From the NCBI RefSeq assembly GCF_013167455.1, contig NZ_CP038328.1: a stretch of DNA of 64,000 nt; one strand, 5' to 3'. Below are positions 45,001-63,000 of the stretch, piece by piece; the stretch's first letter is position 1, and each line of letters starts with the position of its first letter. The DNA is from Escherichia coli O157:H7. GTDB taxonomy: Bacteria; Pseudomonadota; Gammaproteobacteria; Enterobacterales; Enterobacteriaceae. Position numbers: made by a program.

Positions 45001-48000
45001 TATTCGCCCTTTGTGCCGTGGTTTACACCTTCTTCGCCACGCCGATTTATAGTGCCGACGCACTGGTACAAATCGAGCAAAGCAGCGGCAATTCGTTAGT
45101 GCAGGATATCGGATCGGCGTTAGCCAACAAACCGCCTGCATCGGACGCCGAGATCCAGTTGATTCGTTCGCGCCTGGTGCTTGGTAAAACGGTGGATGAT
45201 CTCGACCTCGATATTGCGGTGAGCAAAAACACGTTCCCGATTTTCGGTGCGGGCTGGGATCGCCTGATGGGACGCCAGAACGAGACGGTGAAAGTGACTA
45301 CCTTTAACCGTCCGAAAGAGATGGAGGATCAGGTGTTTACGCTTAATGTGCTGGACAACAAAAACTACACCCTGAGCAGCGATGGCGGCTTTAGCGCCCG
45401 TGGGCAAGCGGGCCAGATACTGAAAAAAGAAGGCGTCACGCTGATGGTTGAAGCCATTCACGCCCGCCCGGGCAGTGAGTTTACCGTCACCAAATACTCC
45501 ACGCTGGGGATGATCAATCAACTGCAAAACAGCCTGACGGTAACGGAGAACGGCAAAGACGCAGGCGTACTGAGCCTGACTTATACCGGTGAAGATCGCG
45601 AACAGATCCGCGACATTCTTAACAGCATCGCCCGTAACTATCAGGAACAAAATATTGAGCGCAAATCGGCGGAAGCGTCGAAAAGCCTCGCTTTCCTCGC
45701 GCAACAGTTACCGGAAGTACGTAGCCGCCTTGATGTTGCCGAAAACAAACTGAATGCCTTCCGTCAGGATAAAGATTCTGTTGATCTGCCGCTGGAAGCG
45801 AAAGCGGTGCTCGATTCGATGGTGAACATCGACGCCCAGTTGAACGAACTGACCTTTAAAGAGGCGGAAATCTCCAAGCTGTACACCAAAGTTCACCCCG
45901 CGTACCGCACGCTGCTGGAGAAACGTCAGGCGCTGGAAGACGAAAAAGCCAAACTTAATGGTCGCGTAACGGCGATGCCGAAAACCCAGCAGGAAATTGT
46001 CCGTCTGACCCGCGATGTCGAGTCTGGTCAGCAGGTCTATATGCAACTGCTGAATAAAGAGCAGGAGCTGAAAATCACCGAGGCCAGCACCGTCGGCGAT
46101 GTGCGCATTGTTGACCCGGCAATCACTCAGCCTGGTGTGCTAAAACCGAAGAAAGGGCTGATTATCCTTGGGGCGATTATCCTTGGCCTGATGCTCTCTA
46201 TCGTGGGGGTGCTGCTGCGCTCGTTGTTTAATCGCGGCATCGAAAGCCCGCAGGTGCTGGAAGAACACGGTATCAGCGTCTATGCCAGCATCCCGCTGTC
46301 GGAGTGGCAGAAAGCGCGCGATAGCGTCAAAACCATCAAAGGGATTAAACGCTATAAACAGAGCCAGCTACTGGCGGTGGGGAATCCAACCGATCTGGCG
46401 ATTGAAGCCATCCGCAGCCTTCGTACCAGTTTGCACTTCGCGATGATGCAGGCGCAGAACAATGTGTTGATGATGACCGGGGTTAGCCCGTCAATCGGTA
46501 AAACCTTTGTCTGCGCCAACCTGGCGGCGGTGATCAGCCAGACCAATAAACGCGTGTTGTTGATCGACTGCGATATGCGCAAAGGCTACACCCATGAGCT
46601 GTTGGGCACTAATAACGTTAATGGCCTGTCGGAAATTCTGATTGGTCAGGGCGATATTACTACAGCTGCTAAACCGACCTCTATTGCCAAATTTGACCTG
46701 ATCCCGCGCGGTCAGGTACCGCCAAATCCTTCTGAACTGTTGATGAGCGAACGCTTTGCCGAACTGGTGAACTGGGCGAGTAAAAACTACGACCTGGTGT
46801 TGATTGATACGCCGCCGATTCTGGCAGTGACCGATGCGGCAATTGTTGGTCGTCATGTCGGAACCACGTTAATGGTGGCGCGTTATGCGGTCAACACATT
46901 GAAAGAAGTGGAAACCAGTCTGAGCCGCTTTGAGCAAAACGGTATTCCGGTGAAAGGGGTGATTCTGAACTCCATCTTCCGCCGCGCCAGCGCGTATCAG
47001 GATTATGGCTATTACGAATACGAATATAAGTCGGATGCGAAATAACGAGGCCTGCATTCGCACCGCCCCGTAGGCCGGATAAGGCGCTCACGCCGCATCC
47101 GGCAAGCAAACCAGCTCATAAGCCGGGAGTACAACCTATGAAAGACAATCCGCTGATCTCAATCTATATGCCGACCTGGAACCGCCAACAACTGGCGATT
47201 CGGGCGATAAAATCGGTCTTGCGCCAGGACTACAGCAACTGGGAGATGATCATCGTGGATGATTGCTCCACCTCCTGGGAACAACTGCAACAGTACGTCA
47301 CCGCCCTCAACGATCCGCGTATTACCTACATTCACAACGACATTAACAGCGGGGCGTGCGCGGTACGTAACCAGGCGATTATGCTGGCGCAAGGGGAATA
47401 CATTACCGGGATCGATGACGATGATGAATGGACGCCCAACCGCCTGAGCGTCTTCCTCGCCCATAAACAGCAACTGGTCACTCACGCCTTTTTGTACGCT
47501 AACGATTACGTTTGCCAGGGCGAAGTTTATTCCCAACCGGCAAGCTTACCACTGTATCCCAAATCGCCGTACTCACGCCGCCTGTTCTATAAACGCAATA
47601 TCATTGGCAATCAGGTCTTTACCTGGGCATGGCGTTTCAAAGAGTGTTTGTTCGATACCGAACTGAAAGCGGCACAGGATTACGACATCTTCCTGCGGAT
47701 GGTGGTGGAGTATGGCGAACCGTGGAAAGTGGAAGAGGCGACGCAGATCCTGCATATCAATCACGGTGAAATGCAGATCACCTCGTCACCGAAAAAATTC
47801 TCCGGATACTTCCACTTTTACCGCAAGCACAAAGACAAATTCGACCGTGCCAGTAAAAAATATCAGCTGTTTACCCTCTACCAGATCCGCAATAAACGTA
47901 TGACCTGGCGCACTTTGCTGACGCTGCTGTCGGTGCGTAACGGCAAACGTCTGGCTGATGGTATTCGGGGGCGCTAAATATGCTGGAAGATCTACGCGCC

Positions 48001-60000: not shown

Positions 60001-63000
60001 CCGCCAGACTCGCTACGGCATGGATGGCAAGCCGATCAAAGTGTGGAAGTTCCGTTCCATGAAAGTGATGGAGAACGACAAAGTGGTGACCCAGGCGACG
60101 CAGAACGATCCGCGCGTCACCAAAGTGGGGAACTTTCTGCGCCGCACCTCGCTGGATGAATTGCCGCAGTTTATCAATGTGCTGACCGGGGGGATGTCGA
60201 TTGTCGGTCCACGTCCGCACGCGGTGGCGCATAACGAACAGTATCGACAGCTCATTGAAGGCTACATGCTGCGTCATAAGGTGAAACCGGGCATTACCGG
60301 CTGGGCGCAGATTAACGGCTGGCGCGGCGAAACCGACACGCTGGAGAAAATGGAAAAACGCGTCGAGTTCGACCTTGAGTACATCCGCGAATGGAGCGTC
60401 TGGTTCGATATCAAAATCGTTTTCCTGACGGTATTCAAAGGATTCGTTAACAAAGCGGCATATTGATATGAGCTTACGTGAAAAAACCATCAGCGGCGCG
60501 AAGTGGTCGGCGATTGCCACGGTGATCATCATCGGCCTCGGGCTGGTGCAGATGACCGTGCTGGCGCGGATTATCGACAACCACCAGTTCGGTTTGCTTA
60601 CCGTGTCGCTGGTGATCATCGCGCTGGCAGATACGCTTTCTGACTTCGGTATTGCTAACTCGATTATTCAGCGAAAAGAAATCAGCCACCTTGAACTCAC
60701 CACGCTGTACTGGCTGAACGTTGGGCTGGGGCTTGTGGTGTGTGTGGCGGTGTTTTTGTTGAGTGATCTCATTGGTGACGTGCTGAACAACCCGGACCTG
60801 GCACCGTTGATTAAAACATTGTCGCTGGCGTTTGTGGTTATCCCCCACGGGCAACAGTTCCGCGCGTTGATGCAAAAGGAGCTGGAGTTCAACAAAATCG
60901 GCATGATCGAAACCAGCGCGGTACTGGCGGGCTTCACTTTTACGGTGGTTAGCGCCCATTTCTGGCCGCTGGCGATGACCGCGATCCTCGGTTATCTGGT
61001 CAATAGTGCGGTGAGAACGCTGCTGTTTGGCTACTTTGGCCGCAAAATTTATCGCCCCGGTCTGCATTTCTCGCTGGCGTCTGTTGCGCCGAACTTACGC
61101 TTTGGTGCCTGGCTGACGGCGGACAGCATCATCAACTATCTCAATACCAACCTTTCAACGCTGGTGCTGGCGCGTATTCTCGGCGCGGGCGTGGCAGGGG
61201 GATACAACCTGGCGTACAACGTGGCCGTTGTGCCGCCGATGAAGCTGAACCCGATCATCACCCGTGTGTTGTTTCCGGCATTCGCCAAAATTCAGGACGA
61301 TACCGAAAAGCTGCGCGTCAACTTCTACAAGCTGCTGTCGGTGGTGGGGATTATCAACTTTCCGGCGCTGCTCGGGCTGATGGTGGTGTCAAATAACTTT
61401 GTACCGCTGGTATTTGGCGAAAAGTGGAACAGCATTATTCCGGTGCTGCAATTGCTGTGTGTGGTGGGTCTGCTGCGCTCCGTAGGTAACCCGATTGGTT
61501 CGCTGCTGATGGCGAAAGCGCGGGTCGATATCAGCTTTAAATTCAACGTATTCAAAACATTTCTGTTTATTCCGGCGATTGTTATTGGTGGGCAGATGGC
61601 GGGCGCAATCGGCGTCACGCTCGGTTTCCTGCTGGTGCAGATTATCAACACCATTCTGAGTTACTTCGTGATGATTAAACCGGTTCTTGGTTCCAGTTAT
61701 CGCCAGTACATCCTGAGTTTGTGGCTGCCGTTTTATCTCTCGCTGCCGACGCTGGTGGTCAGTTATGTGCTGGGCATTGTGCTGAAAGGGCAACTGGCGC
61801 TGGGGATGCTGCTGGCGGTGCAAATAGCCGCGGGCGTGCTGGCGTTTGTGGTGATGATTGTGCTGTCGCGCCATCCGCTGGTGGTGGAAGTGAAGCGCCA
61901 GTTTTGTCGCAGCGAAAAAATGAAAATGCTTTTACGGGCGGGGTGAGTTGTTGTTTTCGGTTCCGACAACGGTTGCCGGGTGCAGCGTAAAACACCTTAT
62001 CCATCCTACGGTTCTGTGCTCGGGTCTTGTAGGCCTGATAAGACGCGCCAGCGTCGCATCAGGCAAAAAACGGCAACGAACACAACAAACACAGCCTCAC
62101 CTGGCATCAAATTTATGAGGAAAAAATGAAATTACTTATTCTGGGCAACCACACTTGCGGCAATCGTGGCGACAGCGCCATCTTGCGCGGCTTACTTGAT
62201 GCCATCAACATCCTCAATCCACATACCGAAGTGGACGTGATGAGCCGCTATCCGGTCAGTTCTTCCTGGCTGCTCAACCGCCCGGTAATGGGTGATCCGC
62301 TGTTCCTTCAAATGAAACAACACAACAGCGCGGCGGGCGTTGTCGGGCGCGTTAAAAAAGTCCTCCGTCGCCGCTATCAGCACCAGGTATTGCTCTCACG
62401 CGTCACCGACACTGGCAAGCTGCGCAATATCGCCATCGCCCAGGGATTCACCGACTTCGTGCGCCTACTGTCAGGTTACGACGCCATTATTCAGGTCGGC
62501 GGATCGTTTTTTGTCGATCTCTACGGCGTGCCGCAGTTTGAACATGCACTTTGCACATTTATGGCGAAAAAGCCGCTGTTTATGATTGGTCACAGCGTCG
62601 GTCCCTTCCAGGATGAGCAATTTAACCAACTGGCGAACTACGTTTTTGGTCACTGCGACGCGCTGATCTTGCGCGAATCGGTCAGCCTCGATCTAATGAA
62701 ACGCAGCAATATCACCACTGCAAAAGTTGAACATGGCGTCGATACCGCGTGGCTGGTCGATCACCACACAGAAGACTTCACCGCCAGCTATGCCGTCCAA
62801 CACTGGCTGGACGTTGCCGCACAACAGAAAACGGTGGCAATTACCCTGCGCGAACTGGCACCGTTCGACAAACGCCTCGGCACCACTCAGCAAGTGTATG
62901 AAAAAGCCTTTGCCGGGGTGGTCAATCGCATTCTCGACGAAGGCTATCAGGTCATTGCGCTCTCCACCTGTACGGGTATCGACAGCTATAACAAAGACGA

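What the first reader, a model, noticed from the sequence alone, without database searches (positions are those of the whole stretch)
47046..62125. REP elements at three internal junctions of the colanic acid operon
Seen: REP-type palindromes lie in the intergenic gaps wzc-wcaA, cpsB-cpsG and wzxC-wcaK, while most other junctions in the cluster are overlapping or tightly spaced. Established knowledge: REP hairpins can stabilise upstream mRNA and attenuate downstream expression. Inference: these may set differential expression of sub-blocks within the operon.
Basis: partly seen in the sequence, partly recalled or inferred. Interest (0 to 1): 0.2.

Follow-up and report, generated by a model that had tools for sequence, protein, structure and literature searches.

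The report
REP repeats inside the colanic acid operon
Three gaps inside the E. coli O157:H7 colanic acid operon do hold ordinary REP/BIME palindromic repeats, but this was already published, two of the three sites are REP-free in many natural E. coli strains, and only the wzc-wcaA site looks like a possible expression boundary.

Summary
The window is E. coli O157:H7. REP palindromes lie in the wzc-wcaA (92 bp), cpsB-cpsG (192 bp) and wzxC-wcaK (179 bp) gaps.

The elements are a solitary y-type REP (wzc-wcaA) and two y/z2 BIME-2 units. They fold into RNA hairpins of -19 to -22 kcal/mol with no U tract.

The same three sites and their indels were reported by Iguchi et al. 2011 (PMC3158064).

Comparative data argue against a designed three-boundary system:
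- K-12 has no complete REP at cpsB-cpsG and four at wzxC-wcaK.
- At least 1,112 of 5,426 E. coli genomes lack a complete REP at cpsB-cpsG.
- At least 218 genomes have a REP-free wzxC-wcaK gap.
- One y copy in O157 is decayed.
- Most other genera have a short, unstructured wzxC-wcaK gap.

Only wzc-wcaA carried a REP in all 59 E. coli genomes sampled. It is structured in 53 of 64 other species and shows a 1.5- to 2.2-fold drop in published induction ratios.

Best reading: the REPs are mobile repeats lodged in the few permissive gaps, with at most modest incidental effects on mRNA stability. Interest is low.

The parts
43075..43113 (+). JUMPstart element upstream of wza; the ops sequence GGCGGTAGCGTG at 43103-43114 overlaps its 3' end. 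Context: the RfaH loading site for the whole operon.
   Evidence: Rfam RF01707, 57.3 bits; sequence read.
47070..47103 (+). Solitary y-type REP in the wzc-wcaA gap, GTAG end first on the + strand. The RNA hairpin spans 47074-47103 at -20.9 kcal/mol, starts 28 nt after the wzc stop codon and has no U tract.
   Evidence: (matches the first hairpin of the naRNA4 model).
57456..57469 (+). Half REP (z2 head, CGTCGCATCAGGCG) starting 2 nt after the cpsB stop. Its first 13 nt form one copy of the 13-nt direct repeat that flanks the 88-bp BIME indel relative to K-12. It can also pair with the head of the next y REP.
57476..57509 (+). y-type REP of the cpsB-cpsG BIME-2 unit; RNA hairpin -19.2 kcal/mol.
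57521..57558 (+). z2-type REP, tail to tail with the y REP across an 11-nt S-type linker; RNA hairpin -21.9 kcal/mol, no U tract.
57593..57642 (+). algC RNA motif, the conserved leader ending 4 nt before the cpsG start codon. It is the invariant, non-REP part of the cpsB-cpsG gap.
   Evidence: Rfam RF02929, 78.2 bits. Also found in Salmonella, Enterobacter, Kluyvera, Citrobacter and a REP-free E. coli allele. The core is conserved in at least 47 of 73 gaps.
59029..59052 (+). Non-REP hairpin CCCUUACCCC/GGGGUAAGGG in the cpsG-wcaJ gap, about 20 nt upstream of the wcaJ start; -16.9 kcal/mol. This fourth junction hairpin was not in the finding.
   Evidence: A comparable hairpin with different arm sequences is present in 39 of 39 short-gap species, and the gap is structured in 69 of 71 species.
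61947..61959 (+). 5' arm (GTTGTTGTTTTCG) of an older non-REP hairpin that starts directly after the wzxC stop codon. The BIME is inserted in its loop.
   Evidence: The REP-free allele L087 folds as a 13-bp hairpin. Long-range pairing in O157 is seen.
61974..62009 (+). Decayed y-type REP with a mutated stem (only -4.6 kcal/mol) in the wzxC-wcaK gap.
   Evidence: (2 mismatches). The intact counterpart in K-12 is shown.
62029..62066 (+). z2-type REP of the wzxC-wcaK BIME-2 unit; RNA hairpin -21.9 kcal/mol, followed by an A run rather than a U tract.
62077..62090 (+). 3' arm (CGAACACAACAAAC) of the older hairpin that encloses the BIME.

Best explanation
These are ordinary E. coli REP elements: one solitary y REP (wzc-wcaA) and two BIME-2 units made of y and z2 (cpsB-cpsG, wzxC-wcaK).

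Shown here: BIME-2 arrays change copy number between strains, and these ones sit in the only junctions of the operon that are not overlapping or tightly spaced. Inferred: tight junctions are probably translationally coupled and cannot accept a roughly 40-100 bp insert, so the repeats collect in the few loose gaps.

Once transcribed, each intact copy folds into a hairpin of -19 to -22 kcal/mol with no U tract, so none is an intrinsic terminator. The most likely RNA-level effect (inferred) is the generic REP effect: a barrier to 3'-to-5' exonucleases that lengthens the life of the upstream mRNA segment, possibly with weak Rho-linked attenuation. The operon is transcribed by RfaH-modified polymerase loaded at the JUMPstart/ops site, which should blunt such attenuation.

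This effect is probably meaningful only at wzc-wcaA, where it would favour the export genes wza-wzb-wzc over the biosynthesis genes by roughly two-fold. At cpsB-cpsG and wzxC-wcaK the repeats are dispensable, polymorphic passengers.

The operon's conserved punctuation is non-REP: the algC leader before cpsG and the cpsG-wcaJ hairpin.
For: - Identity as y/z2 REPs and BIME-2: with the family definition.
- Genome-wide repetition.
- Hairpin energies and absence of a U tract.
- JUMPstart/ops upstream of wza. RfaH antitermination of the wca operon is stated in PMC9976346.
- Copy-number polymorphism: K-12 has 1, 0.5 and 4 REPs where O157 has 1, 2.5 and 2. Alleles with 0, 2, 4 or 6 REPs exist.
- REP-free or half-REP alleles in 795, 317 and at least 218 genomes.
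- A decayed y copy in O157.
- In 80 other species the tight junctions are invariant, and different palindromic repeat families occupy the same loose junctions.
- wzc-wcaA always carried at least one REP in a spread sample of 59 E. coli genomes.
- wcaA induction is lower than wzc: 6.72 to 5.70 log2 in K-12, 5.32 to 4.17 in O157 Sakai, and 17.4 to 11.1-fold and 45.0 to 26.0-fold by RNA-seq.
- No drop across wzxC-wcaK.
- REPs as protective 3' structures: Dar and Sorek 2018.
Against: - There are no direct 3'-end or half-life data for this operon. The Adams et al. 2021 supplementary tables list no wca site, probably because the operon is silent in standard culture.
- The expression values used are induction ratios, which are blind to constant-fraction attenuation. 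They also vary as much between adjacent genes without a REP (wcaC 5.47 to wcaD 7.23; wcaK 6.15 to wcaL 4.14).
- Three of the four loose gaps are occupied, against about 15% of gaps elsewhere in the window. This is nominally more than chance (p about 0.035) and could reflect selection.
- Structured elements recur at wzc-wcaA in 53 of 64 other species, which is also what selection for a boundary hairpin would give.
Confidence: 0.65

Rival explanations
1. One reading: the REP hairpins at all three junctions are selected regulatory boundaries. They stabilise upstream segments and attenuate downstream ones, setting the stoichiometry of four sub-blocks (wza-wzc | wcaA-cpsB | cpsG-wzxC | wcaK-M).
For: - Stable sense-strand hairpins form at all three sites.
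- REP occupancy of the loose gaps is marginally above the window's background.
- Structured repeats recur at the wzc-wcaA and cpsB-cpsG junctions in other genera.
- There is a 1.5- to 2.2-fold drop from wzc to wcaA.
- General REP literature.
Against: - Natural alleles lack complete REPs at cpsB-cpsG (K-12 and at least 1,112 genomes) and at wzxC-wcaK (at least 218 genomes).
- Copy number runs from 0 to 6.
- The y REP at wzxC-wcaK in O157 is decayed.
- There is no drop across wzxC-wcaK in K-12 or O157.
- The induction gradient along the operon is smooth and is steepest at wza-wzb-wzc, where there is no REP.
- The wzxC-wcaK gap is 14-40 nt and unstructured in most genera.
Confidence: 0.12
2. A DNA-level role. 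The two BIME-2 units are gyrase-binding sites or topological insulators that relieve transcription-driven positive supercoiling in a long operon of about 22 kb that encodes several membrane proteins. The RNA hairpins would be incidental.
For: - Both multi-REP sites have the y/z2 composition of BIME-2.
- BIME-2 is the class cleaved by gyrase in vivo, and REPs are described as topological insulators (Espeli and Boccard 1997 and others, cited).
- The sites flank membrane-protein genes (wcaJ, wzxC).
Against: - The same polymorphism argument applies: many strains lack these BIMEs and other genera lack them entirely.
- No binding data can be obtained with these tools.
Confidence: 0.1
3. Recombination junctions. 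The REPs mainly matter as break points for homologous or RAYT-mediated exchange of the adjacent O-antigen and colanic acid region between lineages (Iguchi et al. 2011).
For: - Iguchi et al. saw REP-containing indels coincide with changes in sequence similarity at wcaK-wzxC.
- The 88-bp cpsB-cpsG indel is flanked by a 13-nt direct repeat.
- Hybrid deletion alleles exist (L090).
- TnpA-REP promotes BIME recombination in vitro.
Against: - The authors themselves found only a few such cases.
- This reading explains the polymorphism, not any function for the cell, and it is compatible with the best explanation rather than exclusive of it.
Confidence: 0.1

Closest known systems
E. coli REP (palindromic unit) y and z2 types, and BIME-2 arrays (Gilson/Bachellier/Hofnung classification; Ton-Hoang et al. 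2012, PMC3333891)
   Same: About 35-nt imperfect palindromes with a GTAG/CTAC tail. The y and z2 units alternate in orientation, tail to tail across a short linker. They are extragenic and occur in many genomic copies. The tandem copy number at one locus varies between strains.
   Different: Nothing of substance. The wzc-wcaA copy is solitary, one y copy in O157 is decayed, and a half REP remains at cpsB-cpsG.
Intercistronic REP mRNA stabilisers (malE-malF, hisJ-hisQ; Newbury 1987, Stern 1988)
   Same: REP hairpins between co-transcribed genes, with no U tract, expected to block 3' exonucleases and raise the upstream:downstream ratio.
   Different: There is no direct evidence in wca. The operon is RfaH-dependent. 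Two of the three sites are absent in many strains.
Predicted stem-loop attenuator downstream of wzc in group 1 capsule loci (E. coli K30, from my own knowledge of Rahn and Whitfield 2003) and Klebsiella cps loci (PMC3438125)
   Same: A hairpin directly after wzc separates the export genes wza-wzb-wzc from the serotype-specific biosynthesis genes in a JUMPstart/RfaH operon.
   Different: Here the hairpin is a REP and has no U tract. The Klebsiella elements are predicted Rho-independent attenuators. Homology between the two was not shown.
Iguchi et al. 2011, PLoS One 6:e23250 (PMC3158064)
   Same: Reports REPs in exactly these three gaps (wcaA-wzc, cpsG-cpsB, wcaK-wzxC) of O157 strains. It states that all strains conserve the wcaA-wzc REP and that the other two sites carry indels of two or four REPs.
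   Different: They discuss recombination, not expression, and compared six strains rather than thousands.
naRNA4 / REP325 (Rfam RF02564)
   Same: The model is a y + z2 pair, and each wca REP aligns to one of its hairpins.
   Different: Scores of 34-40 bits fall below the 59.5-bit gathering threshold. Only the fbaB-gatY BIME at 4888-4958 passes.

Membership tests
REP / palindromic unit (y, z2) | About 35-nt imperfect palindrome with a conserved GTAG/CTAC tail | tested here: met
   Sequences; motif matches; alignment to the y and z2 hairpins of the naRNA4 model; hairpins of -19 to -22 kcal/mol. One copy (61974-62009) is degenerate.
REP / palindromic unit (y, z2) | High copy number in the genome, in extragenic positions | tested here: met
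   10 motif matches in 64 kb against 0.66 expected. The BIME part of the queries matches a median of 11 places per E. coli genome. All copies lie between annotated CDSs.
BIME-2 | y and z2 units in inverted orientation separated by a short S linker | tested here: met
   57476-57509 (y) and 57521-57558 (z2) with an 11-nt linker; 61974-62009 (y, decayed) and 62029-62066 (z2) with a 19-nt linker. Definition taken.
BIME-2 | Tandem copy number at a locus varies between strains | tested here: met
   cpsB-cpsG has 0, 0.5, 2.5 or 4.5 REPs; wzxC-wcaK has 0, 2, 4 or 6.
BIME-2 | Bound and cleaved by DNA gyrase | not testable with these tools
   Needs gyrase cleavage or ChIP data.
REP mRNA stabiliser / attenuator | Stable hairpin in the sense transcript between co-transcribed genes | tested here: met
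   co-directional genes downstream of a JUMPstart.
REP mRNA stabiliser / attenuator | Transcript 3' ends or decay intermediates at the REP, with a step in abundance across it | tested here: inconclusive
   No wca entries in the 3'-end tables of PMC7815308. Induction ratios drop 1.5- to 2.2-fold at wzc-wcaA but not at wzxC-wcaK. These are ratios, not absolute levels.
Translation-regulating REP (Liang, Rudd and Deutscher 2015) | [quoted passage not shown] | tested here: not met
   REP stems start 28 nt (wzc), 21 nt (cpsB) and 29 nt (wzxC) after the stop codon (rule quoted). Caveats: an alternative stem between the half REP and the y head starts 1 nt after the cpsB stop, and the older non-REP stem starts right after the wzxC stop.
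Intrinsic (Rho-independent) terminator | GC-rich hairpin followed by a U tract | tested here: not met
   No + strand terminator-like site in any of the three gaps. The bases after the hairpins are GCAAACC, TGAATGC and AAAACGG.
Group 1 capsule wzc-downstream attenuator | Stem-loop immediately downstream of wzc in a JUMPstart/RfaH polysaccharide operon | tested here: met
   Position and hairpin. Described for Klebsiella cps loci. Attenuator activity is not testable here, and no U tract is present.

The most novel reading that the evidence does not exclude
Across Enterobacteriaceae, the same wca junctions are occupied again and again by interchangeable palindromic repeats. These are REP/BIME in Escherichia, Salmonella and Citrobacter, and a CCCCTCACCC..CCCTCTCCCC/GGGGAGAGGG..GGGGTGAGGGG family in Enterobacter, Kluyvera, Pseudocitrobacter and others. 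Occupancy is 53 of 64 species at wzc|wcaA, 69 of 71 at cpsB|cpsG and 69 of 71 at cpsG|wcaJ.

This could mean that a boundary hairpin of any origin is selected at these positions, that is, mobile repeats recruited as modular mRNA-segment boundaries. Such boundaries would fix the ratio of the export machinery, the sugar-nucleotide and glycosyltransferase block, phosphomannomutase and the initiating transferase in an RfaH-driven 20-kb transcript.
Probability: 0.15. Interest if true: 0.45.

Novelty: already known. Interest (0 to 1): 0.12.

Why it matters
If REPs really set sub-operon stoichiometry, natural copy-number variation would be a simple route to strain-to-strain differences in capsule output. 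It would also give a tool for tuning long biosynthetic operons.

The evidence here points to the ordinary case. The repeats are known, mobile and mostly dispensable passengers. The practical value of this check is mainly negative, with two useful by-products:
- The natural allele series (0, 2, 4 and 6 REPs at one junction; 0, half, 2 and 4 at another) is a ready-made experiment for anyone who wants to measure REP effects in a native operon.
- The conserved junction elements of this operon are the algC leader and the cpsG-wcaJ hairpin, not the REPs.

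Tried and rejected
- Intrinsic terminators at the REPs: rejected. There is no U tract and no + strand hit in the gaps.
- Internal sigma-70 promoters in the three gaps: none found by the consensus scan.
- Translation-coupled REP control: rejected for the REP hairpins themselves because they lie 21-29 nt from the stop codon.
- Membership in Rfam naRNA4: the wca REPs score 34-40 bits against a 59.5-bit threshold.
- ERIC elements as the strongly folded repeats in other genera: no ERIC core was found. They belong to a different C-rich/G-rich palindromic family that is not in Rfam.
- Direct 3'-end evidence: no supplementary files are held for Dar and Sorek 2018, and there are no wca entries in the Adams et al. 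2021 tables.
- Stevenson et al. 1996, the original wca cluster paper: not held.
- The K-12 RefSeq record as held lists only CDS features in this region, so no REP annotation was available from it.
- RNAalifold on a MAFFT alignment of the cpsG-wcaJ gaps gave no consensus because the short hairpins misalign. Per-sequence folds were used instead.
- Paper searches for RNA-seq tables covering all wca genes found only microarray fold changes.

Full report
**What is there**

The window is E. coli O157:H7: positions 46000-64000 are 100% identical to several O157:H7 chromosomes. The colanic acid operon runs on the + strand from wza (43292) to wcaM. The RefSeq annotation shows that 15 of its 19 junctions are overlapping or at most 28 bp. 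The four exceptions are wzc-wcaA (92 bp), cpsB-cpsG (192 bp), cpsG-wcaJ (54 bp) and wzxC-wcaK (179 bp).

Reading the gaps and scanning for the REP tail motif (10 matches against 0.66 expected) and for repeats gives the following elements:
- a solitary y-type REP at 47070-47103;
- a half REP at 57456-57469, a y REP at 57476-57509 and a z2 REP at 57521-57558;
- a mutated y REP at 61974-62009 and a z2 REP at 62029-62066.

The y and z2 units lie tail to tail across a short linker, which is the definition of BIME-2 (Ton-Hoang et al. 2012). Each REP aligns to one hairpin of the Rfam naRNA4 model, which is a y + z2 pair, although below that family's threshold. The BIME parts of the queries match a median of 11 places per E. 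coli genome.

1. The cpsG-wcaJ gap holds a 10-bp non-REP hairpin at 59029-59052 (-16.9 kcal/mol).
2. The last 50 nt of the cpsB-cpsG gap are the Rfam algC RNA motif (57593-57642, 78 bits). It ends 4 nt before the cpsG start codon.
3. The wzxC-wcaK BIME sits in the loop of an older hairpin whose arms are at 61947-61959 and 62077-62090. REP-free strains have just that 13-bp hairpin in a 71-bp gap (L087).
4. A JUMPstart element, overlapped at its 3' end by the ops sequence (43103-43114), lies upstream of wza at 43075-43113.

**RNA properties**

On the sense strand the four intact REPs fold at -19.2 to -21.9 kcal/mol, and the decayed y copy at only -4.6. The gaps fold better than shuffled sequence, with z = -2.5, -4.7 and -3.3. 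None of the hairpins is followed by a U tract, and the terminator scan finds no + strand site in the three gaps. No sigma-70-like promoter was found there either.

The REP stems begin 28, 21 and 29 nt after the stop codons. That is outside the fewer-than-16-nt window in which REPs were shown to reduce translation of the upstream gene (Liang et al. 2015, as quoted). In the O157 allele an alternative stem between the half REP and the y head starts 1 nt after the cpsB stop.

**Already published**

Iguchi et al. 2011 (PMC3158064) describe REPs of 34-36 bp in exactly these gaps (wcaK-wzxC, cpsG-cpsB, wcaA-wzc) in O157 strains. They state that all strains conserve the wcaA-wzc REP and that the other two sites carry indels of two or four REPs. 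They discuss recombination, not expression.

**Variation within E. coli**

K-12 MG1655 has the same single REP at wzc-wcaA. Its cpsB-cpsG gap is only 104 bp and holds just the half REP. The 88-bp difference from O157 is flanked by the 13-nt direct repeat CGTCGCATCAGGC. Its wzxC-wcaK gap is 275 bp with four REPs.

Spread samples of the 5,426 complete genomes, with fetched examples, show these alleles:

| Junction | Alleles seen |
|---|---|
| wzc-wcaA | 92 bp with 1 REP (34 of 59); 177 bp with 2 REPs (13 of 59); 128 bp with 1 REP of another subtype, e.g. EC958 (12 of 59). Always at least one REP. |
| cpsB-cpsG | 192 bp (22 of 34); 280 bp with four REPs (1); the K-12 type (6); a REP-free 101-bp allele (4). 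|
| wzxC-wcaK | 71 bp REP-free; 145 bp hybrid deletion; 179 bp (2 REPs); 275 bp (4 REPs); 371 bp (6 REPs); a 161-bp allele carrying a different repeat. |

Junction-specific queries give lower bounds on allele counts:
- 795 genomes carry the K-12-type cpsB-cpsG junction.
- 317 genomes carry the REP-free cpsB-cpsG allele.
- At least 218 genomes carry the empty wzxC-wcaK site.

Two of the three REP sites are therefore dispensable in nature. K-12, the standard colanic acid model, lacks a complete REP at one of them.

**Other Enterobacteriaceae**

A scan with WcaI returned 80 loci from Escherichia whittamii, Salmonella, Citrobacter, Enterobacter, Kluyvera, Kosakonia and others. Mapping the O157 proteins onto them shows that the tight junctions are invariant: wcaB-wcaC is -4, wcaC-wcaD is -26, gmd-fcl and fcl-gmm are about 2, and gmm-wcaI is -4.

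Counting gaps of at least 35 nt that fold at -15 kcal/mol or better:

| Junction | Structured gaps |
|---|---|
| wzc-wcaA | 53 of 64 |
| cpsB-cpsG | 69 of 71 |
| cpsG-wcaJ | 69 of 71 |
| wzxC-wcaK | 18 of 72 |
| wcaE-wcaF | 7 of 71 |
| wcaF-gmd | 7 of 72 |
| wcaJ-wzxC | 3 of 75 |
| wcaD-wcaE, wcaI-cpsB | 1 of 69 and 1 of 79 |
| all other junctions | none |

E. coli-type REPs occur in Escherichia, Salmonella, Citrobacter and some others. Many other genera carry a different, very stable palindromic repeat (CCCCTCACCCTAACCCTCTCCCC...GGGGAGAGGG...GGGGTGAGGGG, up to -200 kcal/mol in tandem) at the same junctions. It is not in Rfam.

The cpsG-wcaJ hairpin is present in all 39 species with a short gap, with different arm sequences. 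The algC motif is found in Salmonella, Enterobacter, Kluyvera and Citrobacter, and its core is present in at least 47 of 73 gaps.

The family-wide loose junctions are therefore wzc|wcaA, cpsB|cpsG and cpsG|wcaJ. The wzxC|wcaK gap is a lineage-specific expansion.

**Expression data in the literature**

No 3'-end data exist for the operon in the sources I could read. Three data sets give induction ratios.

| Data set | Values |
|---|---|
| K-12 + colicin M, log2 at 60 min (PMC3599342) | wza 7.12, wzb 6.33, wzc 6.72, wcaA 5.70, wcaB 5.73, wcaC 5.47, wcaD 7.23, wcaE 7.26, wcaF 7.21, gmd 6.65, fcl 6.57, gmm 6.15, wcaI 5.92, cpsB 5.10, cpsG 5.15, wcaJ 4.82, wzxC 4.45, wcaK 4.45, wcaL 3.63, wcaM 2.71 |
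| O157 Sakai under cold and osmotic stress, peak log2 (PMC5098033 supplement) | wzc 5.32, wcaA 4.17, cpsB 5.15, wcaJ 4.54, wzxC 4.36, wcaK 6.15, wcaL 4.14 |
| LolCDE inhibitor RNA-seq, fold change (PMC5105897) | wza 46.8, wzb 45.1, wzc 17.4, wcaA 11.1 |

wcaA is consistently 1.5- to 2.2-fold below wzc. There is no drop across the wzxC-wcaK BIME, whether it has four REPs (K-12) or two (O157). Differences of the same size also occur at junctions without REPs.

These are ratios, not absolute levels, and they would not reveal a constant-fraction attenuator. The evidence is therefore weak in both directions.

**Interpretation**

The REPs are ordinary, known, mobile or expandable repeats that occupy the only junctions able to accept them. 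The other three REP loci in the window lie at the 3' ends of transcription units (fbaB|gatY, gatR|yegS, alkA|dgcE).

Occupancy of 3 of the operon's 4 loose gaps, against about 3 of 20 elsewhere in the window, is only marginally unusual (p about 0.035, post hoc). Their likely RNA effect is the generic one: an exonuclease barrier, blunted by RfaH.

It is plausibly meaningful only at wzc-wcaA. That site parallels the predicted stem-loop attenuator after wzc in Klebsiella cps loci and, from my own knowledge, in the E. coli K30 group 1 capsule cluster (Rahn and Whitfield 2003). A designed three-boundary scheme is not supported.

Rival readings cannot be excluded with these tools, but they face the same polymorphism argument. 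They are gyrase or topological function of the BIME-2 units, and recombination break points.

**Verdict**

- Observation: confirmed.
- Interpretation: partly supported, at one junction of three.
- Novelty: already known.
- Interest: low.

Noticed in passing
window 57593-57642 (+): The Rfam algC RNA motif (RF02929, 78 bits) sits directly upstream of cpsG (phosphomannomutase) and ends 4 nt before the start codon. The 5' GGCC can pair in two mutually exclusive ways (GGCCG/CGGUC or UUGGCC/GGCCAA), and the UUGCCU...AGGGUAA hairpin overlaps the likely Shine-Dalgarno sequence. It is conserved in Salmonella, Enterobacter, Kluyvera and Citrobacter. Its function is unknown.
   Followed up: partly
window 59029-59052 (+): A hairpin with a C/U-rich 5' arm and a G/A-rich 3' arm lies in the cpsG-wcaJ gap, about 20 nt before the wcaJ start. 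A comparable hairpin with different arm sequences is present in 39 of 39 short-gap species. It has no U tract. It may be a conserved processing or stability element, or a minimal relic of the CCCTCTCCC repeat family.
   Followed up: partly
L007, L015, L025, L038, L058, L066 and others (wzc-wcaA, cpsG-wcaJ, wzxC-wcaK, wcaF-gmd gaps); also E. coli allele L088 208-368: A second family of nested palindromic repeats (CCCCTCACCCTAACCCTCTCCCC ... GGGGAGAGGG ... GGGGTGAGGGG), often tandem and extremely stable (-80 to -200 kcal/mol), occupies the same wca junctions in Enterobacter, Kluyvera, Pseudocitrobacter, Superficieibacter and others. It has no Rfam match. One E. coli (APEC) allele carries a copy in place of the BIME.
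   Followed up: partly
window 61947-62090; L087 208-278: The wzxC-wcaK BIME is inserted in the loop of a pre-existing 13-bp hairpin (GUUGUUGUUUUCG/CGAAAACAACAAC) that begins right after the wzxC stop codon. Empty-site alleles exist in at least 218 genomes. A short CAACG(G) sequence is repeated at both ends of the insert, which may be a target duplication.
   Followed up: partly
window 26581-27532: Three tandem ~328-bp copies of the Ibs/Sib type I toxin-antitoxin module lie between mdtA and yegL: three Rfam SIB_RNA hits on the - strand and three annotated Ibs toxin genes on the + strand.
   Followed up: no
window 4888-4958 (+): The BIME (y + z2) between fbaB and gatY passes the Rfam naRNA4 (REP325-type nucleoid-associated RNA) gathering threshold at 68.3 bits. 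The wca BIMEs do not.
   Followed up: no
window 13279-13364 (-): The CyaR (RyeE) small RNA gene lies between yegR and yegQ (Rfam, 100.7 bits).
   Followed up: no
window 33479-36797 (-): dgcE (diguanylate cyclase) is annotated as frameshifted (a pseudogene) in the identical O157:H7 record.
   Followed up: no
window 49657-52195 (wcaD-wcaF), from published data: In both the K-12 and the O157 array data, wcaD-wcaE-wcaF show higher induction than the upstream genes wcaA-wcaC (7.2 against 5.5-5.7 log2 in K-12). Attenuation on a single transcript cannot explain a rise. Possible causes are probe effects, an internal promoter or differential stability.
   Followed up: no
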